Assembly: GCA_000165345.1 (NCBI GenBank)
Contig: CM000430.1
Coordinates: forward strand, 160,001-224,000
Length of the DNA: 64,000 bases
Reading direction: 5' to 3'
The position numbers and the translations under genes were made by a program. Below are positions 8,797 to 57,204 of this stretch, one piece after another (position 1 is the first letter of the stretch; every line of letters begins with the position of its first letter). Under the pieces are notes generated by a model that saw nothing but the letters and a program-made list of their open reading frames with translations, was not told the DNA's origin and searched no databases.

Positions 8797-8816
8797 TTTG
8801 GCGCCTAATGTGGGTT
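8797..8816. promoter_or_regulatory. GGCGCC palindrome with adjacent AATGTGGG box (TTTGGCGCCTAATGTGGGTT) in the divergent intergenic region between the PMS and PPPDE genes
   Basis: GC-rich octamer in an otherwise 20% GC spacer. Matches the upstream motif class over-represented in Cryptosporidium intergenic DNA. Confidence 0.5.
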
Positions 8817-9143
8817 TCATGTTTTTTTTTTAATATTTATTAGGAAGCCACAAGAGTGAAAGAGCATTTAAAGAAATTAATTATTTAATTAATTAAAAGA
8901 ATACAAGAAGAAAATAACACATTGAGTATTATTATATTGACAAATAGATCTGTATACAAATAACTAAATATATACATATACAAGCTTAAACAACACTCCA
9001 CACAATAGAAAAACAATAAGAGAAATTATCTCGAATAGAGATTTTTTTTTTTTTTCTCCTTCCCATGGATAAATCAGAAATATTAAATAATATCAGTTTT
9101 AGTAAATTAGGCAATTAATTTCAATAATTATTTGGGTAAAACA

Positions 9144-9953
9144 ATGAATGGAGAATTGAATAAAACCCAATATAATACAAATATAAAAACAACAAATACA
9201 GATTATTTTGACCAAATGGAGAATATTTCAGGATCAAATGTAAGAGGACGCTTGACTTACTCTGATTTACATGTCAAGGATAGCTTCTCGCATGCATATA
9301 GTAATAATAATATTACCAGATGTTCATCAAATTATAGAGAAGAAAACTTTGACAGAGATTCTGGTAGCAACATGGTAATTCTTAATGTATATGATTTAGA
9401 TGCAATTAGTGGAAGTATTAATAGATTTACAAGAGTATTCGAATTGGGAGCTTTTCATGCAGGAATTGAAATTTATGGAGTAGAATACTGTTTTGGATCA
9501 ACTAGTGATGGAAGTAGTGGTATCACAGTAAATCTTCCAAGAAGGCATCCAATACATATCTATAGAGAAAGTGTTAAGATGGGTAGAACTAACTATTCTA
9601 GGGGAGAAATTAAGAGAATTATTAACGAAATGAAGCCTTTATGGCTTGGTTCAGATTATAATATATTCAGGAGAAATTGTTTAACTTTTGCTGACGAACT
9701 TTGTATGGTTCTAAATGTTGGACAAATTCCAAATTATGTCAAACTTCTCCCTGAACTTCTTTGTCAAGCTGGAGATGGACTTGACAAAGTCACCAAACAT
9801 ATTTCAACAATTTTTGACCGTATTGCCTCTAATTGTTCTAATCTTGCAATCGTTGAAAGCGAACAAGAAGAAAAAAATGATCAATCAACGACTAATTCCT
9901 CAGGAATGTCGCCCAAAAAATTTCCTTTTGGAATTAAAAATCCCCTTTTATAA
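9144..9953 (+). CDS. PPPDE/DeSI-type putative peptidase (DUF862, desumoylating isopeptidase family)
   Basis: Motifs VILNVYDL, GAFHAGIEIYGVEYCFG and RRNCLTFADELC match the PPPDE His/Cys dyad architecture. The track start at 9132 is TTG; the first ATG is at 9144. Confidence 0.7.
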   Translation: MNGELNKTQYNTNIKTTNTDYFDQMENISGSNVRGRLTYSDLHVKDSFSHAYSNNNITRCSSNYREENFDRDSGSNMVILNVYDLDAISGSINRFTRVFELGAFHAGIEIYGVEYCFGSTSDGSSGITVNLPRRHPIHIYRESVKMGRTNYSRGEIKRIINEMKPLWLGSDYNIFRRNCLTFADELCMVLNVGQIPNYVKLLPELLCQAGDGLDKVTKHISTIFDRIASNCSNLAIVESEQEEKNDQSTTNSSGMSPKKFPFGIKNPLL

Positions 9954-9987
9954 ATATTCCTTGTTACAAGCGCATTAATTAATGACA

Positions 9988-10004
9988 TTGGCGCCCAATG
10001 TGGT
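9988..10004. promoter_or_regulatory. GGCGCC plus AATGTGG composite (TTGGCGCCCAATGTGGT) upstream of the gene at 10496
   Basis: Near-duplicate of the 8797 element. Confidence 0.45.
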
Positions 10005-10325
10005 AAATAAAGATATGCAATGTTTGCATGTACAATTTTTAATTGAAAAAACGAGAATAAATATAATTTTAAAAGGAGAAAATAAATTAGATAAATTTTA
10101 TAAATTTCAAAAGGTACAAATTCAGGTAATTAAATCATTAGACTAAAGATTCTATTAAATTATGAGCCCTCACTTTTTTTTTCTTTTTTTGAATGAGATA
10201 GTCTGTCATTGAATTCATTTCTCCATTTTTTACGCAAAATCTACTTTTTTTAAAATTTTTAATAAATAATTTATTTTTATATATTTTCTAGAACTATTTG
10301 AGGTAGAAGGGGTACAAAGTTGGAG

Positions 10326-10343
10326 TTCCCGCCAAAAGTTCAG
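10326..10343. promoter_or_regulatory. E2F-like site TTCCCGCCAAAAGTTCAG
   Basis: Matches the E2F consensus TTTSSCGC in inverse orientation. The same 15-mer recurs at 31330. Confidence 0.45.
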
Positions 10344-10495
10344 GCTCTAAAGTTTATTAATAAGAGGAGATAGGCAGAAAAAACGATCAAGCTGAATATA
10401 CGGGCTATTATTATTTTTTTTCCTTGTAAAAATAAAAAACAATAAAATTTTAATAAAATTCTATTTACGACTTGTTGACCATTGTATTAAAAAAG

Positions 10496-11638
10496 ATGAT
10501 GAAATTTCTAAGAAAGGTACGTTAATTAGTAAGTATGAATTGGCCACATTTTACACGTAAATTTGGTCATAGGTATAGAATTAAATTTGAGCAAGTAAAT
10601 AACTCTTTTTTCTTTTAGATTTTTTATGTAAAGAAGATTGCTAATGATCCTTTAGAGTCTTTGACAGGAGAGTTGGATAATGTTTTAAAATTTGCAAAAA
10701 AAATGCAAATAGCTGTAGATAAAAGCATTACAAGTGTTACAAATCTATGTTATTCAAGAGAATTAATTCTAAATGGAATTGGAAATTTGTTTCCTCAAGA
10801 AGCTATAGAATATGGAAGCTTAATGAATTCTATGGAATGTATGGGTGGTTTAACAACAGCTAGAGAACATTTTAATGTTGATTGCGATCAGGTAAAAATC
10901 TTGATCCAGGAAATGGTTTTAAGTGTAAATAGTATCCAAAAGCGTCTAGTAAAGAGAAGAATCGCATACTCTGAGAGAATTCACTATGAAAAGAAATTAA
11001 AGAAGCGACAACAAAGAATGAATTCTGGAAAAAGTATTTCCTTAAACGATAACGTCAAATTGGATAGAACCCAAAGAAAATGCGGAGATGCTTTAGATGA
11101 GTTCACTAGAATTGATGATGATGTACAACAAGAACTCCAACAATTTTTAACAAGAAGCCATGAAATATCACTAAACATTATCTCCAAATATAACTACGCA
11201 GTCGGAAGCTTTTTCTCTTTTGTTTATTCTCATTATGATAATATGGTCAATGGAGAAATTCCAACTAATAATCTAATGATACCTGACCAGCCACAAGTAT
11301 CAATCACCAATTCTAATTCCACGCCAAATGCAGATTTAGTGGTTTCTCCAGGTAAGGTTTCTGGAACAGCCATGAACTCAGCGACATCCGTATCCACTTC
11401 TTCTTCAAACCAAGTACAATCAACGCCAAATCTCCGTCAAACTGGAAATACATCAATGGGTACCATTAACTCTCAAAAAATGGATAGCTCAGAAACATTA
11501 ACTAGACCAGCATCCACATCTACACTTAAAAAATCAGACTCAGGGTGCTTCTCTGGAGTGGAGTTTGCTTCAAGGAGAAATACAAAGAGTATGCATCAAA
11601 ATAGCTCCTCTATGGAAATTAACTTAAATAAAGCCTAA
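10496..11638 (+). CDS. Hypothetical protein, possibly BAR-domain-like, with a basic/Ser-Thr-rich tail. Candidate 21-nt first exon (10496..10516, MMKFLRK), a 102-nt intron (10517..10618, GTACGT...TTTTAG), then exon 2 from 10619. Alternative unspliced start at ATG 10703
   Basis: The track ORF starts at TTG 10661. The frame is open back to the acceptor at 10619 and there is a stop (TAG) inside the acceptor. An upstream ATGATG is followed by a GTACGT donor in the correct phase. Confidence 0.4.
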
Positions 11639-11748
11639 ATGATTTTTTTTAAAAAATTTTTAATTTGCACATGTATATATTTAAAATACTAGTGCTCAAG
11701 AGGTGAGAAAGAACGCGCGGGAAAATTCGGGAGAGGCAGAAAGCGATA

Positions 11749-12972: not shown

Positions 12973-13021
12973 TTACCTTTCCCTTTTTCATATCATTGTT
13001 TATGCTATATTAGACTCTGAA

Positions 13022-13033
13022 TTGGCGGGAAAC
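13022..13033. promoter_or_regulatory. E2F-like site TTGGCGGGAAAC about 50 bp upstream of the GTF3C5 start
   Basis: Canonical E2F core. Confidence 0.5.
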
Positions 13034-13559
13034 CCAAATTGCCTTTGCTTTATCCCCACATTTCGTGGCAATTAAACGTATTTGTTTTCAAAATGTTGCA
13101 TGCGCATGCAGGAATAGCTTTTGAAATATTAAAGCGTATAGAGTTTACTATAATCTAGAAATATGATCAAATAAGAGATAATCTAGCGGATGATCATGAT
13201 AATTAGAGATAATATAGTAATAGATATACTGTATAAAAAAGGTCTAACACCTGATACAAAATTAAAGTTGGAATTGTTGGAATACACACACACAAACATA
13301 AATATTTTCCTTAGTGATAGTTAGGAGGAATCAAGCTAGGCTATTTGGTTTGATAATGCAAATAAACTTCATCTAACAGAAATGGGAATAGGTGAATATT
13401 CTCATGAATGTAATTACATAAAATTTCACAAATATAGCTTCAGATATTTGATATCACGGGATTTTTTTTCGAAATCTTTGAAGGAATTAAATTAATAGAA
13501 TACACTTAAAATATTTTAATTTAAAATTTATTTAAAAATAAAACAATTTCTTAACAAAA

Positions 13560-13571
13560 TAGGCGCCAAAG
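13560..13571. promoter_or_regulatory. GGCGCC/E2F-like (TAGGCGCCAAAG) about 135 bp upstream of DLC8
   Basis: sequence. Confidence 0.45.
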
Positions 13572-13700
13572 TCCCCACCTTACGTCTGTAATTTAGATCT
13601 GAGTGTATGTAAATATTACGAGGAAAATTTTGTAAAGACTGGAAGGAAAGAAAAAAAAAAAAAAGAAAAACAGGAATATTAATATTAAGAATAAATAAAA

Positions 13701-13970
13701 ATGAGTGAGAAGAAAGCAGTAATAAAAAATGCAGATATGTCCGATGAAATGCAACAAGATGCTATTTCATGTGCAGCTGCAGCTATTGAACGACACAATG
13801 TGGAAAAAGATATAGCAGCATATATAAAGAAGGAGTTTGACAGAAAGTATAATCCAACATGGCACTGCGTTGTTGGTCGTAATTTCGGATCTTATGTGAC
13901 ACACGAAACAAGACATTTTATTTACTTTTATATGGGTCAAATTGCTGTGCTATTATTTAAATCAGGATAA
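13701..13970 (+). CDS. DLC8: Dynein light chain LC8 (DYNLL/DLC8)
   Basis: 89 aa, near-identical to the LC8 family: [17 protein letters not shown]...[47 protein letters not shown]. Confidence 0.95.
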
Positions 13971-14174
13971 GCAATGTCAAGTATATGGAAAAAAAGAGAA
14001 ATAGGGGGGAAATGCTGCTTTTAGCAGAATCTATATTGAAAAAGAGTCTAATGGAAGGATGGTGAGCTTTGAGCAGAGAAACTTATAGAAATAATATTTT
14101 GATCAAAGTTCATGTTACAAATTTTTGTGATTTAGAAAACAGCTTGAAAAACAAGTATGTTTATAATAAAATAG

Positions 14175-15443: not shown

Positions 15444-15528
15444 CGCCAGAGTTTTGTATTGTCTTTACCTTTTGTCCTCTTAATTCCACCTTTTTACTAG
15501 CAATTCTATTGACTAAAGAAAACAAGTG

Positions 15529-15546
15529 TTGGCGCCTTATGGCGGC
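15529..15546. promoter_or_regulatory. GGCGCC plus GGCGGC composite (TTGGCGCCTTATGGCGGC) in the 228-bp bidirectional BUB3/alpha-SNAP promoter
   Basis: Part of a 50-nt GC island (15529-15578) that also carries TGGGTTTGTGGG and a GTGCAC palindrome. Confidence 0.5.
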
Positions 15547-15671
15547 ACACTGGGTTTGTGGGACCCGTGCACTTGTTAGGGTAGTAAGGTAGAGAATAAA
15601 GGAGAAGGTTGAAAAAGAGATAATTGAAGATTTTGTATTGTATTACGAGCTTTAACTGTTGATGATTTGAT

Positions 15672-18461: not shown

Positions 18462-18477
18462 TTTGGGCGGGAAAATT
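18462..18477. promoter_or_regulatory. E2F site TTTGGGCGGGAAAATT about 90 bp upstream of Sam50 exon 1
   Basis: Full E2F consensus. Its position relative to the inferred exon-1 ATG supports the spliced model. Confidence 0.55.
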
Positions 18478-20152: not shown

Positions 20153-20355
20153 TTTCAGAATCTTATTCTATCTTTATTTATAGGCTTACAATGATTAGCT
20201 AACTTGTTGCTTTCACACAGAACTTTTTAAAACTTGAGTAGAGTAAACAAACTTCTAAATTTTTGTACATTAACTTTTATTTCTATTTGTTTATTTTCCT
20301 GATACTTATTTTATTAATAAATCAGCATCACAAAACATGTCAAAATGACGTAATA

Positions 20356-20378
20356 GGCGCCGCGAATTACCCGCCACG
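20356..20378. promoter_or_regulatory. GGCGCC followed by a CCCGCC box (GGCGCCGCGAATTACCCGCCACG) in the divergent MINDY-like/LCCL promoter
   Basis: sequence. Confidence 0.45.
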
Positions 20379-20905
20379 GCCTTGTTTTCATGTTGACATT
20401 TTAAAAGAAAATATTTTTCATGGGGGTAATATTTTTGGCAAGTGAAAGGTTTAATAAAATGATATTAAATTTTGTCAATTTACTTAGTATTCTATGCCTC
20501 TATATTTAGTTGTAAATATTCCGGAAAATTATATTAATTATTTTAAATCAGCAAAATTTAATTAAATCTCATTAGGAGTTTTTGTTTAATTTCATGCATT
20601 TTTTTGCATGCATGACTGGTTATTCTTTTTTGAATTAAAATTTAATGTGGACAAATATTTAGTACCGGTGTATTAGTAATGCGCATGCATGTGAAAGAAA
20701 AAATAATTGCAAAATGTTTGTATAGAATGAATTTTATAGAATTGTATAATTTGACCAAAAAAAAATTGCATGTATATTTATTAACTTTTTTTTCTTTAAA
20801 TTAAGAGTTATTAAAGAAAAAGTGGAGTGAACCAGAATTAAAAGAAAAAAGAAGAAATTCACTCTTCATTTACAAGAATTAGAGTTGAGAATAATTGACT
20901 AGAGG

Positions 20906-24649: not shown

Positions 24650-25454
24650 GCAACTTAATTATATAGCAACCATAATATTAAAAAAGTCAATTATTGTTAA
24701 ATAGTTTACTAATTTATTTAATAATGAATTTAATGACTTGATAATATTAAGAGAACAAAAAACATATAGAAAGAAACAAGTAAGAAAACTAAATACGCTT
24801 TTTGTCCCTAAAATTAATTATATTTTCTATTTCCATTTCTTCTTTAATTTAGTAACATTGAAATTTAATTCATAATAAGAATTTCAAAAGAAAACTAATG
24901 AATAGAAACGAGATATGTGAAGTTATGGAAACTCAATTCCTAACTAATATACTTTCCTGAGCTCCTTAATTCATTCGTAATTGTCAAATAATGGCTCCGA
25001 AAACTAGAAAGTTGCTATTCCATAATAACTTATTTAACAAATAATTAATAGTTTTTATATATAAAAATAAATTACGTGTGAAAATGAATTCATGTGGCGG
25101 TATATAATTAGATTATAAATTTTTATGTAATTGCTAATTTAGGAAAAACCAAAGCAGAAATAATTTTTTTTAGAAAAGAAAAGAGGAAAAAACAGATTCT
25201 AATACGAGGCTTATTCCAGATAACCAAATTCTATGAAAGAAGATCCAAGCAGATTTTCAAGCTAGAAATTCGAAATTACAAATAATTAATTAACAAAGTT
25301 TTGGCTATATTAAAAAAAAAGCCGAGTAGATTTTGGCAACACACACACAAATTAATTTAGTCCAAAGACCAATAAGCTCATTTTTGTATTCATGTATGCA
25401 TGCAAAATAGCGAAAACCACTTAATACACAAAAAAAAACAATATATAGTTAGGA

Positions 25455-27269: not shown

Positions 27270-28139
27270 ACTTTGCAATATAAGATTAAGAAAGTCCATT
27301 AGACGTTAGAATTTTAATTCGGCCTACCTTATTTTGAAGAAAGTTGTAGATAATACTTTCTCTCTAATACACTTAATAGATATTTGTAATACAAACACAA
27401 TATCTAAGCTAAATATTTACAAATGCATAAAGAAGTCTAGTTATACTAATCAACTTTTCCCTAACTTTAAATCTACTCAAAAACTCTCTACTAAATACAA
27501 TTCAATCATACAAAAAAAAACACACACAATACCTCATTCATTTTAAAAATGACTTAGTGTTATTCTGATTGTGATATTTTCATTTGTAACTAACGATTAA
27601 TATGATAATCATATACTCCATTTTATTGAATTCGATTTCTATTATAGTTTAGCGCTTTTCAACATTCAAAAGAACTTGTCAATCATTTTGAACTAATAGA
27701 AGGAATAACCACAAGCCTTAGAAATTACAGAAAGCATTGGAATAAGCTGACTCGATACCTGTAACCTTTATTGTTACATTGGATGAGTTAAAACAAGACA
27801 CATCCGATATTTACTGAGGTCATATCCTCAATGCTATAAACTCATTCCTGTACTTATTTGGACTGTTTGGTTCTTCCTCATTCTACTAATACTCTTTAGA
27901 ATGAATAAGATGATAAATATAGCAATTCTTAGCAGTAATTTGGAAGAGTAAGGAAGAAGAGGAGGAGCAATTAGATATAATATTACAAGGCATTCCAACC
28001 AATTTCTTGGCAGTTCGCTATACCTTGTTGCAATCAGCTCAGCTTTGAATAACAAAAGGTAAAATTGAGCCAAACATTTTCTTCATCTACAAATTATTGC
28101 TTTAAGATCGATGAAACATTAGAGCAACAAAAAATCCAA

Positions 28140-28931: not shown

Positions 28932-28945
28932 TTTTAGGCGGGGGG
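28932..28945. promoter_or_regulatory. E2F-like TTTTAGGCGGGGGG upstream of calmodulin
   Basis: sequence. Confidence 0.4.
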
Positions 28946-29803: not shown

Positions 29804-29913
29804 ACAATTAAACTTGAACTTTTAAGCAAAAATTGCCTTGCAATAATTATTTATCCATTTAAAAGGATAAAAAAAGGAGACGCGGCCATTTATACCGCCA
29901 AGTAATATTTTGA

Positions 29914-29927
29914 GGGCTGGCGCCCGC
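29914..29927. promoter_or_regulatory. GGCGCC-containing GC box (GGGCTGGCGCCCGC) about 115 bp upstream of eIF1
   Basis: sequence. Confidence 0.45.
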
Positions 29928-31329: not shown

Positions 31330-31347
31330 TTCCCCGCCAAAAGTTCA
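31330..31347. promoter_or_regulatory. E2F-like TTCCCCGCCAAAAGTTCA in the divergent TVP23/PIG-P promoter
   Basis: Shares the 15-mer CCCGCCAAAAGTTCA with the site at 10326. Confidence 0.5.
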
Positions 31348-31496
31348 TGTATTATTTTCAAGCCAAATTTTCTTATAAACCTAAATCAAAAAAACTAAAA
31401 TAAGAGAATGTAATAGCATTTAATTTGATTGATTTCATATTAATTCCAAAAGGGGTATAATCAACTCATTTAAATTATAAGATCAGCTTTGAAAGT

Positions 31497-32338
31497 ATGA
31501 GTATAACAGTGCCTGCTGCCGATGTATCGAGTTTTGTAAGCTGGATATTAAGTTGGATTTCTATAGGTAAGTTCAATTTGTCTTGGTATTTAGTGGTTTT
31601 GGGCTAAAATCCAAATTATTGAGCTTTTCCTTACTTTTTAACTGCAATTTGTTGTCAAAGCTATTGAAATAAGTTTTCATGAGTAATTCAAGGGAAAAGC
31701 AAATTTAATAATAATGGATGTGAGATTCAGAAACGCTAACTCAAAAAACTAAATATTTCAATTCTATTAACTGCTGTTTTAATTTAGTTGTATATTTATG
31801 TTGGATGTTTATACCTGATGAGTACTTAAATCAAATCAATATAACATATTACCCAGATAGGATGTGGGGAATTACTGTTCCAATATATATGTTATTTTTG
31901 CCCTTCATGACAATAATAACATATAATTGTATATCAATTCTTAATGTCAGGCCAACCAATTCATTTGACCTGATTATAGATGAATCAACAAGATACATTG
32001 ATCTATCGTTTCTTTATAAATTCGAGGATTTAGAACAAATTAAGTCAATTTGCAAATCAACCTTGAAAATTTATACAATGGTAAATAAAAATCCTGGTGA
32101 AAAAATTACTGAAGGAGGTAGAAGTGACCACGAGAAAAAGTATGAACTCTATGACGATCCAAAAAGTGCTGTAATTAGACAAGCTTTTAAAAGTGAAGAT
32201 GTGACTTTAGATCTAGTCCATTTAAATAACGAAATAGATTCGATACATAACAATAAAAACATTATTCCAGTGGCAGACTTGCCACTTCCTTTAGTTTGTG
32301 AAATGATATACTCGGATAAGTTTGCAGGGAAACAGTAA
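31497..32338 (+). CDS. PIGP: GPI-GlcNAc transferase subunit PIG-P. Two exons (31497..31566 and 31788..32338) with a 221-nt phase-1 intron at 31567..31787
   Basis: Exon 2 (YLNQINITYYPDRMWGITVPIYMLF...PTNSFDLIID...IIPVADLPLPLVCEMIY) is co-linear with human PIG-P ([24 protein letters not shown]...PLDSIHTITD). The track ORF starts mid-TM1. Upstream exon MSITVPAADVSSFVSWILSWISI ends at a GTAAGT donor. The TTTAG acceptor restores ...IVVYLCWMFIPDEYL, matching PIG-P [14 protein letters not shown]. Confidence 0.7.
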
Positions 32339-34667: not shown

Positions 34668-34678
34668 TTGCGCCAAAG
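34668..34678. promoter_or_regulatory. E2F half-site TTGCGCCAAAG about 70 bp upstream of proteasome beta1
   Basis: sequence. Confidence 0.35.
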
Positions 34679-38298: not shown

Positions 38299-39065
38299 TA
38301 CCTACTTTTTTTCTTACTTTATTCACTAAGCCAAGCAATAATTACTTGAGCAGTTTTCATGTATGACTAATTGGCAATTAAGCGCCAAGCAACTTTTTCG
38401 TCTCTAAATTAATATTAGTGAGGGGGAAGCCAATATAATATTAAAGAAAAAATAATCAAAATGTAAATAGATATATATATGAATGACTTGTTTTTGATAT
38501 ATTTTGGGTGAGTATTTAGCTCTGAGCATCAGTGTCCAAATAACTGTTTCCCAATGATACTTTGGGGTCGTTGTTCTTATATAAAATTAAGATTATATCA
38601 TTTGACTCAACGGTAATTATTTTTCTAAAAATAAGTTAGGAAATGAGAATTTAAGTTAAACTTGTGCGTGTGTTCAGTGAATAAACTTACTTTTTTGTTG
38701 TTTCTATAGTTATTGAAATATTCTCACTCAAAATTGAGCTTGATAAAGAACTTCTAATTTGTGTGATAGTAGAACAAAACTCTGAGACTTCATGTTTAAT
38801 ATGTTTAGATCCATATTCTGATTAATATTTAGAGATTATTTACTAGAACAGCAATAAGATTAATATAATTTACCTTGAATTGGTAGGCCTGTTTTTGTAA
38901 AAGATGCCATTCCTATGAATCCTGGTGAATTCTTTAATATCTCATAAGTAGAACTCATTTTATTAAGACTAAAAATATAAATATGCACTAAATTTGAATC
39001 TTAGAAATTTAATTATTTAATTTTTATTACTTTATTCTTGTTTCAATTCAGTCAATTAAATTCGT

Positions 39066-39089
39066 GTGGCGCCGAACACGTATTGTGGG
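39066..39089. promoter_or_regulatory. GGCGCC plus ATTGTGGG composite (GTGGCGCCGAACACGTATTGTGGG)
   Basis: Lies in the 1.1-kb spacer upstream of BRE1. Could also serve the candidate small gene at 38958. Confidence 0.4.
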
Positions 39090-41209: not shown

Positions 41210-43054
41210 TTAGTCCATGTCATCGTTTTGAGAACGGGGCTTTGGACCTCCTGCAGGCTTTGCCATAATGATTTCATCTATTTTAAGAATAGTAACAGCT
41301 GAGTCTGTTGCTAATTTTAAAGCAGAACAAAGAGTGCCCAAATGATCGACAATCAATCCTACTCCCTGCTCATTATTTGAGATACAGTCAATAATTGGAG
41401 AAGTTCCAGAACCACAGAAAACATTTATTCCTTTATGTGGTTGAGAACCTTGTTGATGTATTGCATGTAGTGATGCCAGAAGATCGGTGGAGTTTAGTCC
41501 AGAATTCTCAGCCAATAGTCTTGGGAAAACGTCTAAAGCTTCAGCAAACATATTTACTGCGTACTCCTCCATTCCAGGAACAGGTACATCTACAGAATTT
41601 TGTTGGTATTTGTTTTCAGACTTATCATATGCTCTCAAGCATTTAGAAAGCTCAACAAATGTAGCCCCAGCGCCAGCAACAAATCGATTATCTTTTGTAG
41701 ATGATTTAACAACAGAGACAGAATTCGCAATAGCCCTTTCCATTTCATCCAAAATTCCCTGAGTAGCACCTCTAAGAATAACTGAGCTTACTTTGGTATT
41801 AAGAGCATTAATCACAGTGACCTTCTTCGATCCAATTTCCTCAACCCTGATAGAACTAGCCTTTCCTATTTCTTCTGGAAGAGGAACTCCCAATCTAACC
41901 ATTGCAACAGCTCCAATACTTCGGCAAATGCGCCTCAGTTCCCATTTAGATGTAATTCTTAGAGTTAATATATCGTACTTGTTGCAAAAGTGTTGTGCAA
42001 TATCAGAAATTGGACCGCCTGCGATAATAGCATCGATCTTACCGGTTTGTTTAATATCTTTAATCAAGTTTTCAACCAGAGATTCCTCACCTCTAGTAAA
42101 ATCCAAAAGCTCTTGAGCATTATTTAAAACAACTGTACCTTTCGCCTCTGTTCCAGTCATCTCTAGTCCACATCCTAAAACCATAACATTTGAGACCTTT
42201 TCCAATTTTCTTATTGTACCTCCAGGCTCTCTATTAACCATCATACCATTTATTGTAAATGATTGCATTGGGGATCCTCCCAAAAGCTTAACAATTCTTA
42301 CATTGTCTATATTGAATTCTTTTAATTTATCTTCATCTGGCATTATGCTTGTAATGGCTTCACATGTCAATCTCGTAATTAAATCAGAATATCCTATATT
42401 CTTTGTTGAAACCAAAGGCCTTACAATTCCAGATAAGTCACTAACATTCTTAAAATTAGCAACTCTATGTGCTACCATTCCATTTAGTAAAGATAATGAT
42501 CTTTCTAAGGCTATTTCATATCCTGCTACAATATCTGAAGGATGTAAACCATTATCATTAAGTAGCTTTGCAGCATTTCTTAATAATTCTCCTGCAAATA
42601 TCAAAACTGTATTGCTCGCATCACCGTACTCTTCAGCCTGCCTCTTACATGCCATTACTACCATATTTGCTGCTGGATGCTGGATATCAAGTTCTTCTAT
42701 AATTGTTGACAAGTCACTAGTGATGAACTGTTTTCCAAGATGATTCACAATTAACTTATTCATGCTATTTGGACCATATGATGTTTGAGTCATCTCACTT
42801 AAATTTACGCAAGCCTCAATATTCCTCAATACGGCCTCATCCAGGCCGGAAAATGCCCTGCTTCCATCTTTTAATAAATTTGTAATTCCTGGTCTTAATT
42901 GGAACTAAAAACAATCAGAGGAAATTAATTAATGAAAATAATAATTAAAAAAATTGACCAATAAGTAGCTCAAGCTAAAAAGAATGAAGGCAAATGGGCC
43001 ATATCGCCATGTTCACCTTATTATTGACCAATTTTTATACTCTAAACTTACCAT
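41210..43054 (-). CDS. CCT8: T-complex protein 1 subunit theta (CCT8). The first exon holds only the ATG (43054..43052); a 147-nt intron (42905..43051) precedes exon 2 (42904..41210)
   Basis: Protein co-linear with human CCT8 throughout (NIEACVNLSEMTQTSYGPNSMNKLIVNH..., GGPKP C-tail). The track start at 42829 is TTG and the frame is open upstream to a TTTTAG acceptor (FQLRPGITNLLKDGSRAFSGLDEAVLRNIEAC, matching VPKAPGFAQMLKEGAKHFSGLEEAVYRNIQAC). The in-frame TAG is the acceptor AG. The upstream sequence AAGCAATGGTAAGTTTAG places an ATG directly on a GTAAGT donor. Confidence 0.7.
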
Positions 43055-43250
43055 TGCTTCCTATTCTTTTTTTCTTGGCCAAACAATTTTAAATTAATTG
43101 GTATAATTGACCACACAATACACCCTCTTTCTAAAAAAAAAACAAGAAAAAATGTATTTCCACTTCGCAAACTTCTTCCGGTTCCCCCCTATTTGGCTCA
43201 TTTTCAAGTATGAGACATGATGTCTTTAATGATTATTTGAAGGGCTCTAT

Positions 43251-43259
43251 GTTTCCCGC
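43251..43259. promoter_or_regulatory. E2F core TTTCCCGCC in the divergent CCT8/kinase promoter
   Basis: sequence. Confidence 0.4.
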
Positions 43260-43507
43260 CTATTCTTAAAAAATTATATTAAAAATATACTATGGGGAAA
43301 AAGTTAAGTATTGTGTGGAAAATATGTTTTCTGAGTAAAAATTTGTTGAAATAAAAAAGTGCAATATTTTGACCAAACATTGAAGTTTTGTGATAGTTAT
43401 TGAATAGCTTGGTTGAACACACAATATCGGGCATTTTTGAAGTTCTAATGGTTGATTTTGAAGTAAAATGCTAAATATATTGAAAATATAGGAAAATAAA
43501 TAAGAAA

Positions 43508-44638: not shown

Positions 44639-44814
44639 AATATATAGATTAGAGGTTGAACCATCTCCAATATCCCACAAATATTAACTAGCAATTCGCT
44701 GTTCATAATGTTTATTTTTATTCATATATAAATATCCCCCCTTTCGTATTTTCAATTTTGCATGTATTCTCGCATTTTATTTGCATGTGAATATATTTTA
44801 ATAAATAAAGATCG

Positions 44815-44829
44815 TTGGCGCCATACGTG
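44815..44829. promoter_or_regulatory. GGCGCC box (TTGGCGCCATACGTG) about 150 bp upstream of INS paralog 1
   Basis: sequence. Confidence 0.45.
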
Positions 44830-44971
44830 TCTTATAAATTAATAGGTCAAATTATTAGCAAAATGCCATTCGATAATAAAAATAGATTGGTCTATTGATA
44901 AGTACTCACAGCTGTTAATAACTACCTAAATAAATATATTTGAAGAATTAAAATTATCCCTATAAGAGAAA

Positions 44972-48293: not shown

Positions 48294-48308
48294 AAATGGC
48301 GGGAACAT
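48294..48308. promoter_or_regulatory. E2F-like AAATGGCGGGAACAT about 175 bp upstream of INS paralog 2
   Basis: sequence. Confidence 0.45.
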
Positions 48309-48477
48309 TCAAAATGTTATGTGGGTTAATAGCACAAATATCTGGGAAAAATGTCAAAAGGGGGGGTAATTTTTGTATAGAAATTAGGCATAAAGATAAA
48401 AATAAAATAATCTGAAAACCAAGAAAAGAAAAAAGAGACACGAGGAAATTATTTTTTCAGAGATTTAAATAGAATAG

Positions 48478-51887: not shown

Positions 51888-51902
51888 TTTAGGCGGGAAG
51901 TG
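51888..51902. promoter_or_regulatory. E2F-like TTTAGGCGGGAAGTG about 165 bp upstream of the mucin-like gene
   Basis: sequence. Confidence 0.45.
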
Positions 51903-52060
51903 AAAAAACGACATAAATACTTACTATAGAGGAAACAATAATGGAGGAATAATATTAAGATAAAATAGCAAAAGTAAATCTTTTAAGTATATAATAGGTT
52001 AAAAGTAATTTTAAATACTAATTATTTGGAACATTTTGATGGGATTATCTAAGGATTACA

Positions 52061-55000
52061 ATGAATAAGTATCTACTTATTTACCATTTTTTCCTACAGG
52101 TGGTAATTCTATTATCAATTAATGGAATTTCATTAGGAAAAGAATCTGATTTGGTAGATAACGAGGAATGTGAAAATCCGGAGTATTTGTTTCCCTGGGG
52201 GAACGATTATCTTAATTCATGTTTGAGTTTTCAATGCCATAGGGTCCGAGAACATAAAAGTTGGTATCGCTTTTGGGAAAAAAAACCAAAATATGTTCAT
52301 AAAAATATTAATGGAAGTGAACGGGTGATACAATGTTCAGACTGTGAAGGTTTTTTAAAGAAAGGAGCTCTATTTGGTGGAATGTCAATTTGTACTCCAA
52401 TTGAGTTTGGTGGTAGTTTTGATATACCAAAAGGTTGGGTATCTATAGCTACTGCAAGCTTGCAATTAAATAAGGAAATTAAGAATAAAAGCTCAATTAA
52501 GTTAATTCCAGATAACTGGAGAATTGATGGACAGACTAAAAAGACAACCTTGGACTTGTCCGCTTGTTCCACTTCTGATGATTCTGAAGTAGCTTTATCT
52601 ATATTAGTAACTTTATCAAATATAGCCGAACCTTCCAGAAAGTCCTCAAAATATAGACGTATTTTGGGTCTTCATGATGATTCAATTAATGTGAGGATTA
52701 AAACTCTTGGAGTTGATATGGGAGACTCAGCGGATGGTTTTGACGATGATGATTTGGATGATGACTTTGATGACGAATTTGATAGTGAAGATGTTCAACA
52801 AAGCATGCAACCTGATAATGGGTATAATGAGTACTTTTTGTATGATATGAATAAATTAGCTTCAACACAGCATAGGGTACCTAGAGACAACCCATCCAAG
52901 GGCAAAAAAAATAAGCGAAAAGTAAGAAAGCAAAAACCATTTACTGGTGCAGAAAAACTCCCAAGAAAATGGAAACTTAGCAAAGGCCATGCTTCGATAT
53001 ATTCATCGTCCGATGTTGTGAGGCTTGATCTTGCTTCAGATATTCACCCCAATGAACTTGTCCAAGTTATTCTTACATGTAATAACAAATATATGAATTG
53101 CAATATCCAAGACTTTGTTTCGTGCTTCAATATTCTCTGTAGATCTGTAACCAAGGAAGAGCTTATTCGTAGAGCAGCTTTAATGAAAGCTAAACGGTTC
53201 ATTTCAAATTCTATTATTTCAGGTCAAGTAGTGCCTAAAATGGCTTATAACGGCATGCCATTTCAACCCGGTTTCCCGCCTGCTATTCCAGGGCCTTTCA
53301 ATGGTCAATTCCAGTATCCACATGCAAATAATATAGTAAATGGGAATTTCATACAAAGAAATTCAACTTTGCCTATTCAAGGAGTTTCGAGTGTAGGAGC
53401 AAATTATATTCAAAATAGGGGAAAAAATGGGATTGTTATGGTTAACAATGGAGTAGGAAAGCCTGCTGAAGTAAGTAACCAAGCTAACGTTTTTGTTGGA
53501 AATAATGATGGCGTACAAAATGTAAATATAAATACCAATACTAAGACTGCTGGAATTTCTAATATTTCCCTTCAGCAACCTCCTGCAAATGTTAAAACTT
53601 CTCAGAGTACCGCAGCATCAAAGGGTATTCAAATAATTTTTGTACCAGCACAGAGTCAAACGAATGCCCACTGCCAAAGCCAAACTAACATGGTTAATGT
53701 AAATAAAGCTGTGACTAAATCATCGTTAAAACAGAAAAAGCAAAAAACCTTCATAAGTCAAAACATCATTCCAAAGGAAAACACTAATATTCCAAATCAA
53801 ATTAATAATCCTCAAATACCTACACCAAAACAATCTAAGTCTCAAATAAACCAGATCGGAGTTTATGGCCCTGCTAATCACACCGTTGTTACCTCGTATA
53901 ACTCAAATGTATTAAACACTGATATTTATCAAACTTCCTCTGAGAAAAACTTGGAGAGTCAACCAACAACAGTTTGTATACTAGCTATGGAACCTAAAAG
54001 TGAATCTAAAGTAAATGTTGCGAGTTCAAACACAATTCAGCCCGTAGAACAAACTCAATTCAGCAATGTAAAACAAGATGTTACAGTAGTTTTTAATCCT
54101 ATAAATACAGTTACAAAAACCTCAAAAACTAGCAAACGCAATACTGTGAAACAAACAACAACTAAAACTCAAGCACCAACTTTAAATATTTTATTAGTTC
54201 CTAGTAAGACTGTTAAAAGAAAGAATAATTTCAAGAAAGTTTCTAAAGTCTCTAAAAACGAGGTTAAACATGCAAATAAAACAGTAGACATTATTTTGTT
54301 AAATAGTAATTTAAATCATAAACCTAAAAAGGCTGTTGATAAAAGTAATTCAGATTATATGGCTTTGAATACAAATAATGTCCTAAAACCTCCAAAAATA
54401 ATAACAGGCAAGATAACCTACAAATTGCCTAAAAAAATCAAGAAAAGTAGCAAATCAACAAAGCCAGAGTTTAATATTATAGATACCATAGTTTTAGAAA
54501 AGGTTGATAATAAGGAACCCAGAAACAAAATTGAAAAGTTAGTCCCTGTGGATAGCTCTTCTTTAAGTGATGAGAATATTTTATTATCAGATTCTGAAAT
54601 TAGTAGCCAATACATTTCTAGTAGCCAGAAGAAACATTCTAGACAGTCGCATAGCTCCCGTTCGAAGAATAAAGCTCATAGAAAGAAGTCCATAAAAGTT
54701 ATATCTCGAGAAGACGGAGCAACTGAAAACGTTCTGCTAGATTCCAACAAACATATTTCTAATTCCGATAATAAGGCTTCTTCGGTCAAAGTAGAAAAAT
54801 ATATTCTACATCCAGTTGGCACTTCAGAAAGTTCTGAGGACTCTGAAAGTTTTAGCGAATATGAATTTGGCTCGGAAGAAATTGGATATCTGAGTGATGA
54901 AGATTTCAGTGCCCTAATTCTGAAAAAAGTTAAAGATGATTCTGCAAAGTCAGATAAATCAGTGAAAACGGAGTCCAATTCTAAAGTCTCTATTCAGTCA

Positions 55001-55252: not shown

Positions 55253-55276
55253 TTACTCAGAGAATTTAATTTTTAG

Positions 55277-55290
55277 TTCTGGCGGGAAAC
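55277..55290. promoter_or_regulatory. E2F-like TTCTGGCGGGAAAC
   Basis: sequence. Confidence 0.4.
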
Positions 55291-55663
55291 GAGTGTAATT
55301 TAATCAAATGTTTATTGATACTTCACGGACGTTAAGTTTTTTTTTAATTTATCCATCATTAACACATTTTAACTAGTAAGTCTAAGAATGAAGAGTCAGA
55401 AATTATGCTTTAGTTTTTTAGATTTATTTTAATTCAATTATTATTTCATTAGAGTAGGTATTTAGGTATTTTTAAGGATTTTTTCATGATTTCCGTTTTC
55501 CGGATATATGCCATATTCTCAGTAAATAATAACTTAAACCTAGTAGGGATAAATTAGTAACTTGGATTTATTATAGAAAACGAAACATGGCAAAACTTAT
55601 TTGTTTTATAACTATTGCAATAATATTGAGATTTTTCTTCCAAACAAATGAATTTTCTGTCAA

Positions 55664-55680
55664 ATTGTGGTTGGCGCCAA
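55664..55680. promoter_or_regulatory. ATTGTGG plus GGCGCC composite (ATTGTGGTTGGCGCCAA) about 120 bp upstream of the PPTA-repeat gene
   Basis: sequence. Confidence 0.45.
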
Positions 55681-55795
55681 GTTGTCTTTTGAGATAAATA
55701 ACAGAAATTATTCAAGGAATTCAAAAGTATTGTAAACCAGACAGATGATGAATACATTATGATAGTAAAGAAGGCACACATTGTTTTAGTTTAAA

Positions 55796-57109
55796 ATGAT
55801 AGTAGATTTAGAATTATATCCTAAACAGTCACTCAGATTATTATTGTTTATTAATGAGCAAGAAAAACAAAGTAAGAAAAGTACAAAATTTCTGGAATAC
55901 TGTAATGAAGAGGAAGTAAAAGAATTCCAATATTTGGATGAAGAAGATAGAATAATTATATCTGAGAGCTTCAGGGAAGTGGTGAGAGCTGAAATTAGAG
56001 AGTATATTGATTTATACATGGAGCAGTACCAAGAACCATTAAATGATAAAGAAGCTTTGGATATTAATGAAAAGCAATATACAGTTTACGGGAATTTTCA
56101 ACTCTTCAATGAACAAAAAGACACTATTTTATGGGACCTACTAACATTATTGATATACCTAGATAGCATGAATCCACAAATATGGGATAGAAGGGCAGTA
56201 TTAATAGGAGAATTATTACAAAGAATAGGATTGGAATCTGAATATATGAGATTCTTAAGCAGTGAGTTAAATCTTACAAAGCTCGCACTATGTCATACCT
56301 TTAAGTATGGGGAAATCTGGAGTTATTTGGAGTACATATTAACTGAATACTATGAAAGAATTAAAGGAAACGAGTTTAAAAGTTTGAATAATGATGAAAT
56401 TATCAATTATGTTTTAAAAGATAATTTTGAGTTTATTTGTCTACAGATAGACTCCTATGAACACAACTACCATGCTTGGAGTTTAGTTAATTGGTTAATT
56501 TATGAATTAATCCCTACAATAATTTCATCAGATGATTCAAATAAGCCTTATAAATACAATGAAATCAGGATGATCGAAAGTTGGGTAATCAAATTATTAC
56601 AAAGACATCCATCTCATTATGGAGGTTACCATGCGCTTGTGAATCTGAATGAAAGCAAAATTAATTCACAAAGTAAATCAAATAAGCTCGAAGTATGCAC
56701 AGTAATAGGGTTAGTGTACCCAGAAGAAATTATTAATATGCTTAGAGTTATTATTGAGTGTTTTGATCATCATCTTATTAACTGTTTCTCAGTAATTCTA
56801 GGCTTCAGATATGCTAATTTCATGCTTTTGATTGATTCAGTAGATGAAAGATCTCATCTTGAAATTTTTGAAAACGAAATAATGTGGTTTCAAAAACAAG
56901 ATTTGGTTGAAAAAATGTCCAAGAGTCCGAAACATCTTGAAGAATTGAGAGAACACTTTTACTCCATTTTATCAGAGATATCAAGCTATAATTATAATAA
57001 AAGCATTATACAAAAATTCTACGACCTATTAGATTCAGAAATACAAATAATAAGGCAAGAATCAACGCTGTTTTACAATAGTGATTGTTCCTATAAAGGA
57101 CTGGTTTGA
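55796..57109 (+). CDS. Protein prenyltransferase alpha-subunit repeat (PPTA) protein, PTAR1-like or prenyltransferase alpha-like
   Basis: PPTA-like repeats: PQIWDRRAVLIGELL, EHNYHAWSLVNWLIYEL and HPSHYGGYHALVNL resemble the FNTA and RabGGTA repeats (NYQVWHHRRVLVEWL, NYHAWQHRQWVI). Confidence 0.45.
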   Translation: MIVDLELYPKQSLRLLLFINEQEKQSKKSTKFLEYCNEEEVKEFQYLDEEDRIIISESFREVVRAEIREYIDLYMEQYQEPLNDKEALDINEKQYTVYGNFQLFNEQKDTILWDLLTLLIYLDSMNPQIWDRRAVLIGELLQRIGLESEYMRFLSSELNLTKLALCHTFKYGEIWSYLEYILTEYYERIKGNEFKSLNNDEIINYVLKDNFEFICLQIDSYEHNYHAWSLVNWLIYELIPTIISSDDSNKPYKYNEIRMIESWVIKLLQRHPSHYGGYHALVNLNESKINSQSKSNKLEVCTVIGLVYPEEIINMLRVIIECFDHHLINCFSVILGFRYANFMLLIDSVDERSHLEIFENEIMWFQKQDLVEKMSKSPKHLEELREHFYSILSEISSYNYNKSIIQKFYDLLDSEIQIIRQESTLFYNSDCSYKGLV

Positions 57110-57180
57110 GCTATTCACACTAAATTTTTCCCACAACTAATCAATTGATTGCTAATTTAACAAGGTTATAATTTATACTA

Positions 57181-57204
57181 TTTGGCGCCATTTGCCCACA
57201 ATAT
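57181..57204. promoter_or_regulatory. GGCGCC plus CCCACAAT composite (TTTGGCGCCATTTGCCCACAATAT; the reverse complement reads ATTGTGGGCAAATGGCGCC) about 130 bp upstream of the SAS-4-like gene
   Basis: sequence. Confidence 0.45.

What the first reader, a model, noticed from the sequence alone, without database searches (positions are those of the whole stretch)
8797..57204. Recurrent GC-rich promoter grammar: E2F-like GGCGGGAAA sites and palindromic GGCGCC, often paired with an (A)TTGTGG(G) box
Nearly every 5' intergenic region carries one short GC-rich element against a 20-25% GC background: TTTGGCGGGAAA-type sites (13022, 18462, 48294, 51888, 55277; inverse CCCGCCAAAA at 10326, 31330, 43251) or GGCGCC (8800, 9990, 13562, 15531, 20356, 29919, 39068, 44817, 55673, 57184). 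In at least five cases GGCGCC lies within 0-14 nt of an ATGTGG or ATTGTGG box (8800, 9990, 39068, 55664, 57181). This suggests a bipartite element. Sites fall mainly in divergent or 5' spacers, and convergent 3' spacers are mostly devoid of them. The E2F and GGCGCC classes are known over-represented upstream motifs in Cryptosporidium. The regular pairing with the TTGTGG box is the less obvious observation
Basis: partly seen in the sequence, partly recalled or inferred. Interest (0 to 1): 0.6.

Follow-up and report, generated by a model that had tools for sequence, protein, structure and literature searches.

The report
Cryptosporidium E2F promoter boxes, some G-box-paired
The short GC-rich boxes upstream of almost every gene in this Cryptosporidium window are the already published E2F-type promoter motifs, and about a third have a nearby TGTGGG box that is also published, so the grammar is known and only the closeness of the two sites may be new.

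Summary
The window is a compact Cryptosporidium chromosome segment of the parvum/hominis/tyzzeri group. GGCGCC occurs 11 times against 0.58 expected, and GGCGGGAA 8 times against 0.16. Twenty of the 22 strict boxes lie in the 26% of the window that is non-coding. They occur in 16 of 24 spacers that contain a 5' gene end (21 of 24 with half-sites), at a median of about 170 nt from an ATG. None occur in the 7 convergent spacers. The boxes sit at orthologous positions in four other species. They match the published C. parvum E2F-like motifs 3 and 4. [quoted passage not shown] The pairing is real but modest. TGTGGG is the top hexamer within 40 nt of the boxes. Three different null models give a 3-5-fold excess (p about 0.001-0.01). 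Seven pairs are conserved, two of them across the genus. Gaps range from 2 to 24 nt and both orientations occur. This is a loose two-site module, not a rigid bipartite element. A genome-wide test could not be run.

The parts
8784..8826 (+). Composite block TAGGTACGCACATT-T-TGGCGCCTAATGTGGGTTTCATGTTTTT in the MutL(-)/PPPDE(+) divergent promoter. It holds GGCGCC at 8800-8805 and the box ATGTGGG at 8808-8814 (gap 2), followed by TTTCATGT.
   Evidence: The 28-nt run 8799-8826 is identical in the window, chipmunk genotype I and C. ubiquitum, and is among the longest such runs. The block is also kept in C. felis (ACCGCCCTATGTGGGTTTCATG), C. bovis (TGGCGCGTAATGTGGGCTTCATGC) and partly in C. muris (AGCGCCAAGTGGGTTAC), where the flanks no longer align.
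9990..10003 (+). GGCGCC-CA-ATGTGG, 37 nt after the PPPDE stop codon and 507 nt before the next ATG.
   Evidence: The GGCGCC is conserved just after the stop codon in chipmunk genotype I, C. ubiquitum, C. felis and C. bovis. The box is not conserved (ACGTGG, ACATGG, AGGTGG).
10326..10335 (-). TTGGCGGGAA-type E2F site, 169 nt upstream of the hyp311 start (upstream exon inferred from C. ubiquitum).
   Evidence: CCCGCCA conserved as far as C. felis
13022..13061 (+). TTGGCGGGAA (13022-13031), then 24 nt, then CCCCACAT (13054-13061, which is ATGTGGGG on the minus strand). It lies 50 nt upstream of the Tau95(-) ATG.
   Evidence: Both parts are conserved in chipmunk genotype I and C. ubiquitum. TCCCCACATTTCGTGG is a 16-nt run identical in all three species.
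13562..13600 (+). GGCGCC (13562-13567), then 5 nt, then CCCCAC(C) (13573-13579), then TTACGTCTGTAATTTAGATCT. It lies 140 nt upstream of the dynein light chain gene (13701-13970, +).
   Evidence: The E2F core, the CCCCAC box and the downstream block are conserved in all six species. The spacer between E2F core and box varies from 5 to 8 nt and varies in sequence.
15531..15562 (+). GGCGCC (15531-15536), TGGCGG (15540-15545) and TTGTGGG (15556-15562) in the 228-nt WD40(-)/SNAP(+) divergent promoter.
   Evidence: Conserved in chipmunk genotype I (as GGCGCG) and C. ubiquitum, but not in C. felis or C. muris.
18462..18473 (+). TTTGGGCGGGAA E2F site upstream of Omp85(-).
20356..20375 (.). GGCGCC (20356-20361) and CCCGCC (20370-20375) in the hyp366(-)/LCCL(+) divergent promoter. 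A conserved AACATGTCAA lies 21 nt to the left.
   Evidence: The double site is conserved in C. felis (GGCGCC...CCGCCA) and C. bovis (AGCGCC...CCGCCA).
28937..28942 (+). GGCGGG(GGG) upstream of calmodulin(-).
   Evidence: Conserved as far as C. felis.
29895..29924 (.). CCGCCA (29895-29900) and GGCGCC (29919-29924) upstream of SUI1(-).
31330..31353 (-). CCCCGCCAAAAGTTCATGTATT in the DUF846(-)/PIG-P(+) divergent promoter.
   Evidence: A 21-nt run identical in three species. CCGCCA is present in C. felis.
39068..39089 (+). GGCGCC, then 9 nt (containing CACGTA), then TTGTGGG. It lies 108 nt upstream of a two-exon 106-aa gene at 38516-38958(-).
   Evidence: Conserved in chipmunk genotype I and C. 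ubiquitum with gaps of 10-11 nt.
43253..43260 (-). GGCGGGAA site in the TCP1(-)/kinase(+) divergent promoter.
44817..44822 (.). TTGGCGCCA, 157 nt upstream of insulinase-like gene 1. No box lies within 40 nt.
   Evidence: It sits in a 29-nt run identical in three species. GGCGCCA is present in C. felis.
48298..48325 (+). TGGCGGGAA, then 15 nt, then ATGTGGG(TT). It lies 182 nt upstream of insulinase-like gene 2.
   Evidence: TGGCGG and ATGTGGGTT are conserved in chipmunk genotype I and a C. ubiquitum-like contig, and the spacer varies.
51892..51899 (+). GGCGGGAA, 170 nt upstream of hyp1063.
   Evidence: Conserved as far as C. felis.
55281..55288 (+). GGCGGGAA, 28 nt after the hyp1063 stop codon.
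   Evidence: Found. It is not conserved in chipmunk genotype I or the C. ubiquitum-like contig.
55665..55678 (+). TTGTGG-TT-GGCGCC, 125 nt upstream of the 437-aa gene.
   Evidence: GGCGCCA is conserved as far as C. felis. The box is specific to the window sequence.
57184..57216 (+). GGCGCC, then 5 nt, then CCCACAA (57195-57201), then CCACAT (57211-57216). It lies 141 nt upstream of hyp610.
   Evidence: GGCGCC followed by CCCACA or CCACA at a gap of about 5 nt is present in chipmunk genotype I, the C. ubiquitum-like contig and C. felis.
34670..34675 (-). Half-site TTTGGCGCAA. This is one of the looser E2F-like sites. The others are at 25095, 30173, 35888, 38382 and 61777.
   Evidence: Those at 34670, 35888 and 38382 are conserved as far as C. 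felis.

Best explanation
The GC-rich boxes are binding sites of the E2F/DP type. TTGGCGCCA is the palindromic form and TTGGCGGGAA the asymmetric form. They act as the main promoter element of this compact genome. There is usually one, sometimes two, per 5' spacer, typically 50-230 nt from the ATG. In divergent spacers one site probably serves both genes. About a third of these sites have a second short site close by, with the core TGTGGG or GTGGGG. This second site is the published G-box-like motif, and the in vitro candidates for binding it are ApiAP2 proteins. The two sites form a small two-factor promoter module with flexible spacing and orientation. They do not form a rigid bipartite site read by one protein. 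What is shown here: the enrichment, the placement, the conservation between species, the excess proximity of the two motifs, and the variable geometry. What is inferred from the literature and not tested here: which proteins bind, and any cooperation between them.
For: Enrichment is very strong, and strict boxes are about 29 times denser in non-coding than in coding DNA. The median distance to the nearest ATG is 168 nt, and 22 of 28 sites lie within 51-227 nt. In a three-species alignment, 12 of 17 strict hexamers are fully conserved against 8.3% of background hexamers (p = 5e-10). The sites recur at orthologous positions as far as C. felis and C. bovis. The sequences match motif 3 DTTGSCGCCH and motif 4 TTTGGCGGGAAV of PMC3734150. 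Open chromatin peaks from ATAC-seq in sporozoites are dominated by a single E2F motif, and more than half are annotated as bidirectional promoters (bioRxiv 10.1101/2025.01.17.633476). For the pairing, TGTGGG is the top hexamer near the boxes. The excess is 3-5-fold under three null models. GTGGG is also the top partner among fully conserved 5-mers, with 5 of 6 copies within 40 nt of a box. Seven pairs are conserved, and two of them (the MutL/PPPDE and dynein light chain promoters) are conserved across the genus although the flanks no longer align. In the distant species, GTGGG is again nominally enriched near E2F-like sites (7 near against 9 elsewhere, p = 0.0015). The box matches motif 2, which has known AP2 binders.
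Against: There are only 5-9 pairs, and the motif was picked by eye from the same sequence. After correction for the number of k-mers tested, the k-mer scan is only about 0.006, and the scan of conserved k-mers is not significant. The closely related species are not independent samples. Most boxes have GTGGG followed by T, A or C, not the GTGGGG core of the array-defined G-box. Unpaired boxes are conserved about as often as paired ones. No binding or expression data were available here.
Confidence: 0.65

Rival explanations
1. The pairing is coincidental. Both motifs are independently enriched in the short nucleosome-free part of tiny promoters, and the reader selected the partner motif after seeing the data. 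Only the E2F boxes are meaningful.
For: (A/T)TGTGG is not enriched in the window as a whole. There is no replication in C. felis for the stated motif. Gaps and orientations vary. Sequence within 40 nt of E2F sites is in general more conserved than elsewhere (60% against 49% of columns).
Against: The excess persists when each box keeps its own distance to the ATG and when boxes are shuffled within their own spacer. TGTGGG and GTGGG come out top in scans that were not given the motif in advance. In the dynein light chain and MutL/PPPDE promoters both sites are conserved across the genus, while the few bases between them, and in the distant species the flanks, change.
Confidence: 0.25
2. This is a rigid bipartite element. 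One protein or a fixed complex reads GGCGCC plus (A/T)TGTGG at a set spacing, in the manner of the animal CDE/CHR element.
For: Three pairs have a gap of exactly 2 nt (8800, 9990, 55673). GGCGCCNNATGTGG at the first site is conserved in three species.
Against: The three 2-nt pairs do not share an orientation, and two of them are not conserved. The conserved pairs have gaps of 2, 5, 5, 9, 15, 19 and 24 nt. The gap changes between orthologues (5-8 nt at the dynein light chain promoter, 9-11 nt at 39068). The pattern GGCGCCNNWTGTGG occurs nowhere else in about 250 kb of fetched orthologous loci.
Confidence: 0.04
3. The TGTGGG box, together with the recurrent (T)TCATGT nearby, is part of the core promoter or the start of the transcript (an initiator or 5' UTR element) positioned next to the E2F site. 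It is not an independent activator site.
For: CATGT/ACATG is the top 5-mer near the boxes in three species. The most conserved block reads ATGTGGGTTTCATGTTTTT. In the dynein light chain and insulinase-2 promoters, conserved sequence continues beyond the box on the side of the gene.
Against: The box occurs on both strands and on either side of the E2F site relative to the gene, which is unusual for an initiator. No transcription start data were available to test this.
Confidence: 0.06

Closest known systems
C. parvum E2F-like upstream motifs 3 (DTTGSCGCCH) and 4 (TTTGGCGGGAAV), Oberstaller et al. 2013 (PMC3734150). They are also the dominant motif in sporozoite ATAC-seq peaks (Xiao et al. 2025 preprint).
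   Same: The sequences are the same and the genus is the same. Both are upstream and often in bidirectional promoters. Both are the most frequent motif, present upstream of most genes.
   Different: Nothing differs materially. This window adds positional conservation at orthologous sites in five further species.
[quoted passage not shown]
   Same: The boxes here read ATGTGGG(G/T), TTGTGGG(A/C) and GGTGGGG. They match DTGTGGG at 7 of 8 positions in six of eight cases. They are upstream and mildly enriched (19 against 10.3 expected).
   Different: Only 2 of 9 carry the full GTGGGG core. Those papers tabulate co-occurrence only per expression cluster. In the papers searched I found no description of physical adjacency to E2F sites.
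Animal CDE/CHR and E2F-plus-partner composite promoters (from general knowledge, not tested here).
   Same: An E2F-type GC box with a second short element a few bases away in promoters without a TATA box.
   Different: CDE/CHR has a fixed 4-nt spacing and a TTYGAA partner read by LIN54. Here the spacing is free and the partner sequence is unrelated. Published orthologue searches report no Rb protein and few other components of the complex in Cryptosporidium (PMC3734150).
E2F motifs upstream of antisense long non-coding RNAs (PMC7840661) and between the genes of polycistronic transcripts (Xiao et al. 2025) in C. parvum.
   Same: This would explain the boxes placed just after stop codons (9990 and 55281).
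   Different: No transcript data were available for this window, so the link is only a suggestion.

Membership tests
Cryptosporidium E2F-like upstream motif (motifs 3 and 4) | Core [C/G]GCGC[G/C] or GGCGGG with T-rich and A-rich flanks (DTTGSCGCCH / TTTGGCGGGAAV) | tested here: met
   The contexts read TTGGCGCC(A/T), TTGGCGGGAA and TTCCCGCCAAAA. They were compared with Table 1 and Table S3 of PMC3734150.
Cryptosporidium E2F-like upstream motif (motifs 3 and 4) | Over-represented in upstream non-coding DNA | tested here: met
   11 against 0.58 expected and 8 against 0.16 expected. There are 20 non-coding against 2 coding sites, in 16-21 of 24 5' spacers and 0 of 7 convergent spacers.
Cryptosporidium E2F-like upstream motif (motifs 3 and 4) | Under purifying selection, as expected of a functional site | tested here: met
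   12 of 17 are fully conserved against 8.3% of background hexamers (p = 5e-10). Orthologous sites are present as far as C. felis and C. bovis.
Cryptosporidium E2F-like upstream motif (motifs 3 and 4) | Bound by the E2F/DP heterodimer | not testable with these tools
   No direct demonstration of binding was found in the papers read. PMC3734150 itself calls for ChIP-seq to test this. E2F and DP genes are reported in the genome.
[quoted passage not shown] | Sequence DTGTGGGG, or core G[T/C]GGGG | tested here: inconclusive
   Six of eight boxes match DTGTGGG. Only 13054 (ATGTGGGG) and 13573 (GGTGGGG) carry GTGGGG. The boxes at 9998 and 55665 have only TGTGG.
[quoted passage not shown] | Enriched upstream of genes | tested here: met
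   DTGTGGG occurs 19 times against 10.3 expected, and no shuffle reaches 19. Nine of these lie in the 26% of the window that is non-coding.
[quoted passage not shown] | Bound by the AP2 domain of cgd8_810, cgd2_2990 or cgd1_3520 | not testable with these tools
   Array data exist only for the generic motif (PMC4117751).
Rigid bipartite element (CDE/CHR-like) | Fixed spacing and fixed relative orientation of the two halves | tested here: not met
   Gaps range from 2 to 24 nt, both orientations occur, and the gap varies between orthologues. The fixed pattern occurs only at the orthologous MutL/PPPDE site in the fetched loci.
Rigid bipartite element (CDE/CHR-like) | Partner half is a CHR (TTYGAA) | tested here: not met
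   The partner is TGTGGG or GTGGGG. No TTYGAA-containing k-mer appears among the k-mers most enriched near the boxes.

The most novel reading that the evidence does not exclude
A defined subset of Cryptosporidium promoters uses an E2F/DP site closely juxtaposed (2-25 nt) with a TGTGGG/GTGGGG site as a cooperative two-factor module. In this reading the module has been kept since before the split of the gastric and intestinal lineages, as in the MutL/PPPDE and dynein light chain promoters. It would be the first concrete sequence-level link between the retained E2F system and the ApiAP2 (or another) system in an apicomplexan.
Probability: 0.3. Interest if true: 0.5.

Novelty: already known. Interest (0 to 1): 0.27.

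Why it matters
E2F/DP is thought to drive much of Cryptosporidium transcription. It is absent from the other apicomplexans studied, yet no partner factor or promoter architecture has been established. The motifs in this window are not new. If the adjacency of E2F and G-box-like sites holds genome-wide, it would offer a simple testable handle on how one ubiquitous motif can give different expression patterns. The 43-nt block at 8784-8826 would be a ready-made probe for binding and reporter experiments. As it stands, the finding mostly confirms published promoter grammar.

Tried and rejected
(1) A rigid bipartite pattern. GGCGCCNNWTGTGG occurs only at the orthologous MutL/PPPDE site in the 12 fetched loci, so this was rejected.

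(2) Replication of (A/T)TGTGG pairing in distant species. It failed in C. felis and in C. felis, C. bovis and C. muris pooled. Only the shorter GTGGG core is nominally enriched there.

(3) Orientation of the asymmetric GGCGGGAA sites relative to the gene. Four point one way, three the other, and three sit between divergent genes. There is no rule.

(4) Whether shared promoter position explains the pairing. A null model that keeps each box's distance to the ATG still gives a 3-5-fold excess, so this is not sufficient as the sole explanation.

(5) A non-coding RNA or tRNA origin for the conserved blocks and the long spacers. There were no Rfam or tRNA hits.

(6) A genome-wide spacing test from the published supplement. 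Tables S3 and S4 of PMC3734150 give per-cluster consensus sequences and presence or absence only, with no positions. A few MEME consensus sequences extend the E2F core (GGCGCCAACC, GGCGCCACATAGGGG), but nothing could be counted from them.

(7) More genome sequence.

(8) Earlier motif papers (PMC1779779, PMC2832001). Text searches for E2F, G-box and spacing returned nothing useful.


Full report
**What the window is.** The window has about 31% G+C. It is densely packed with mostly intron-free eukaryotic genes: MutL, a PPPDE peptidase, TFIIIC Tau95, SNAP, an LCCL/SRCR protein, calmodulin, SUI1, a proteasome subunit, TCP-1, two tandem insulinase-like M16 peptidases, Rpb5 and others. The best protein matches are 96-99% identical to clusters represented by C. 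tyzzeri, and 92% to a C. meleagridis cluster. More distant orthologues occur in chipmunk genotype I, C. ubiquitum, C. canis, C. felis, C. bovis, C. ryanae and C. muris. The window is therefore Cryptosporidium of the parvum/hominis/tyzzeri group.

I fetched syntenic loci from five species. I used their annotation to correct my ORF-based gene model. The corrections are a dynein light chain gene at 13701-13970(+), a two-exon 106-aa gene at 38516-38958(-), and upstream exons for TCP-1, PIG-P and hyp311.

**Check of the observation.**
- GGCGCC occurs 11 times against 0.58 expected. GGCGGGAA occurs 8 times against 0.16, and GGCGGG 11 times against 1.46.
- With the refined gene model, 20 strict boxes lie in 16.5 kb of non-coding DNA and 2 in 47.5 kb of coding DNA.
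- Strict boxes occur in 16 of 24 spacers that contain a 5' gene end. Counting half-sites (TGGCGC, TGGCGG) raises this to 21 of 24.
- None of the 7 convergent spacers has a box. Those spacers total only 1995 bp, so this contrast alone gives P = 0.027.
- The median distance from a box to the nearest ATG is 168 nt, and 22 of 28 sites lie 51-227 nt away.

**Conservation of the GC boxes.** In a three-way alignment of all spacers (window, chipmunk genotype I, C. ubiquitum), 50.5% of columns are identical in all three species. Only 8.3% of hexamer windows are fully identical. Among the strict boxes, 12 of 17 are fully identical (p = 5e-10). E2F-like sites recur at the orthologous place in nearly every 5' spacer as far as C. 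felis, and often in C. bovis.

**What the GC boxes are.** They match the published C. parvum E2F-like motifs. Table 1 of Oberstaller et al. 2013 (PMC3734150) lists motif 3 DTTGSCGCCH (114 expression clusters) and motif 4 TTTGGCGGGAAV (47 clusters). These are the most abundant upstream motifs in the genome. A 2025 preprint (10.1101/2025.01.17.633476) reports that sporozoite ATAC-seq peaks carry mainly a single E2F motif. It annotates more than half of the peaks as bidirectional promoters and finds E2F motifs between the genes of polycistronic transcripts. Li et al. 2021 (PMC7840661) found E2F motifs within 100 bp upstream of antisense long non-coding RNAs that start near the 3' ends of genes. 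That would fit the boxes at 9990 and 55281, which lie 37 and 28 nt after a stop codon. The box at 9990 keeps that position in four other species. I could not find direct E2F/DP binding data for Cryptosporidium, so the assignment to E2F rests on sequence and the literature.

**What the box is.** [quoted passage not shown] Its per-cluster MEME consensus sequences include GATGTGGGG, TGTGGGG, GAATGTGGGGA and TTCCCCACA. Array experiments show that the AP2 domains of cgd8_810, cgd2_2990 and (as a secondary motif) cgd1_3520 bind G[T/C]GGGG (PMC4117751). The boxes here read ATGTGGGT, TTGTGGGA (twice), TTGTGGGC, ATGTGGGG, ATGTGGGT and GGTGGGGA, plus the weaker ATGTGGTA and TTGTGGTT. DTGTGGG is mildly over-represented in the window, at 19 against 10.3 expected.

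**Is the pairing more than chance?** (A/T)TGTGG alone is not enriched in the window. Its proximity to the GC boxes is.
- In a scan of all hexamers within 40 nt of the 20 strict non-coding boxes, TGTGGG/CCCACA ranks first of 690. Six of its nine non-coding copies lie there (p = 8.6e-6). TGTGG and GTGGG rank second and third among 5-mers.
- When boxes are shuffled within their own spacer, 5 GGCGCC sites have a box at a gap of 12 nt or less, against 1.03 expected (p = 0.001). For all strict sites within 35 nt the figures are 8 against 3.06 (p = 0.001).
- A stricter null model moves boxes between promoters but keeps each box's distance to the ATG. It still gives 5 against 0.99 (p = 0.001) and 8 against 3.15 (p = 0.004).
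- Among k-mers identical in three species, GTGGG is again the top partner (5 of 6 copies within 40 nt), and TGTGGG has 4 of 4.

The GGCGGG class shows no tight pairing. None of its 10 sites has a box at 12 nt or less, and 2 have one within 35 nt.

The weaknesses are the small numbers, the choice of motif after seeing the data, and the non-independence of the close species. Only the shorter core GTGGG is nominally enriched there (3 against 0.58 at a gap of 12 nt or less). In C. felis, C. bovis and C. muris pooled, GTGGG has 7 copies near against 9 elsewhere (p = 0.0015, rank 2 of 469).

**Anatomy of the pairs.** Seven pairs are conserved:
- 8800/8808, gap 2
- 13024/13054, gap 24
- 13562/13573, gap 5
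- 15531/15556, gap 19 (or 10 from the second site at 15540)
- 39068/39083, gap 9
- 48298/48319, gap 15
- 57184/57195, gap 5

At 9990 the orthologues read ACGTGG, ACATGG or AGGTGG. At 55673 the box is absent even in chipmunk genotype I.

Two pairs are conserved across the genus. The first is the MutL/PPPDE block, which reads as follows in each species:
- Window, chipmunk genotype I and C. ubiquitum: TGGCGCCTAATGTGGGTTTCATGTTTTT
- C. felis: ACCGCCCTATGTGGGTTTCATGTTTTTT
- C. bovis: TGGCGCGTAATGTGGGCTTCATGCTTTTT
- C. muris: AGCGCCAAGTGGGTTAC

The second is the dynein light chain promoter. It keeps GGCGCC, CCCCAC(C) and a downstream TACGTCTGTAATTTAGATCT in all six species. The 5-8 nt between the first two elements change in both length and sequence. 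That is the signature of two separate sites, not one long site.

Relative to the nearest gene, the box can lie before or after the E2F site and on either strand. The fixed pattern GGCGCCNNWTGTGG occurs only at the orthologous MutL/PPPDE site in the fetched loci. The asymmetric GGCGGGAA sites also show no consistent orientation towards the gene.

**Mechanism.** The most likely reading is as follows. E2F/DP sites act as the general promoter element, serving both genes of divergent pairs. In a subset, a neighbouring G-box-like site recruits a second factor, for which ApiAP2 proteins are the in vitro candidates. This gives a compact module with flexible geometry. Shown here: enrichment, placement, conservation, excess proximity and variable geometry. 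Inferred: the identity of the proteins and any cooperation between them. I considered three rivals:
- Coincidence within very small promoters. I give this about 0.25.
- A rigid bipartite element. The sequence essentially excludes this.
- A core-promoter or 5' UTR role for the box together with the nearby (T)TCATGT. This is not excluded, because no transcription start data were available.

**Comparison and novelty.** The two E2F classes, the G-box-like motif and the dominance of E2F in Cryptosporidium promoters are all published. The papers I could search tabulate co-occurrence of motifs only per expression cluster (Table S4 of PMC3734150; Supplementary File S7 of PMC4117751). They do not describe physical adjacency of E2F and G-box-like sites. 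The adjacency is therefore a possible small addition, not a new kind of element. Animal CDE/CHR elements are the closest analogy for an E2F box with a close partner, but their defining fixed spacing and TTYGAA partner are not met here.

**Verdict.** The 'regular pairing' is better described as a modest, statistically supported tendency involving another known motif, with two strikingly conserved examples. Confirming it needs a genome-wide spacing test, which these tools could not provide.

Noticed in passing
window 8818-8822, 10036-10040, 20327-20332, 20398-20402, 31346-31350, 38351-38355, 43208-43212, 44786-44790: CATGT/ACATG (often TTCATGT or ACATGT) is the most enriched 5-mer within 40 nt of the E2F boxes in the window (11 near against 23 elsewhere, p = 1.7e-5), in chipmunk genotype I (p = 1.2e-5) and in C. 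ubiquitum (p = 5e-7), and is nominally enriched in C. felis. AACATGTCAA next to the 20356 box is conserved as far as C. felis and C. bovis. It resembles FIRE motif 7 (ACATGY) of Oberstaller 2013.
   Followed up: partly
window 9990-9995 and 55281-55288: These E2F boxes lie 37 and 28 nt after a stop codon and more than 500 nt from the next ATG, in tandem spacers that hold a second box nearer the downstream gene. The box at 9990 keeps its position just after the stop codon in four other species. Published antisense-RNA promoters, or the E2F motifs between genes of polycistronic transcripts, could explain them.
   Followed up: partly
window 43198-43226: A 29-nt run, TCATTTTCAAGTATGAGACATGATGTCTT, is identical in three species. 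It contains the palindrome AGACAT-G-ATGTCT and lies 30 nt from the E2F box in the TCP-1/kinase divergent promoter. Its function is unknown.
   Followed up: no
window 3920-3946, 4876-5001 and 27568-27671: There are fully conserved runs of 14-27 nt in the 2.1-kb spacer upstream of MutL, which has no strict E2F box, and in the 870-nt 'convergent' spacer between the MFS transporter and calmodulin. There is no Rfam or tRNA hit. They may be unannotated small genes, UTRs or non-coding RNAs.
   Followed up: partly
window 13701-13970(+), 38516-38958(-), 42794-43054(-), about 31482-31804(+), 10496-10702(+): A plain ORF scan misses several genes or exons: a dynein light chain, a two-exon 106-aa gene, and first exons of TCP-1, PIG-P and hyp311. 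Adding them moves several GC boxes from apparent 3' or distant positions to 100-200 nt upstream of a start codon.
   Followed up: yes
window 63550-63555 and 53273-53280: One GGCGCC and one GGCGGGAA lie inside coding sequence (the queuine tRNA-ribosyltransferase gene and hyp1063). They are the only strict boxes in 47.5 kb of coding DNA.
   Followed up: no
window 39074-39082, 13580-13586, 44823-44830: CACGTA/TACGTG-like sequences sit directly beside several E2F boxes or G-box-like boxes (GGCGCCgaaCACGTAttgtggg; CCCCACCTTACGTCTG; GGCGCCATACGTGTC). FIRE grouped CACGTA/TACGTG with motif 2 in Table S3 of Oberstaller 2013.
   Followed up: no
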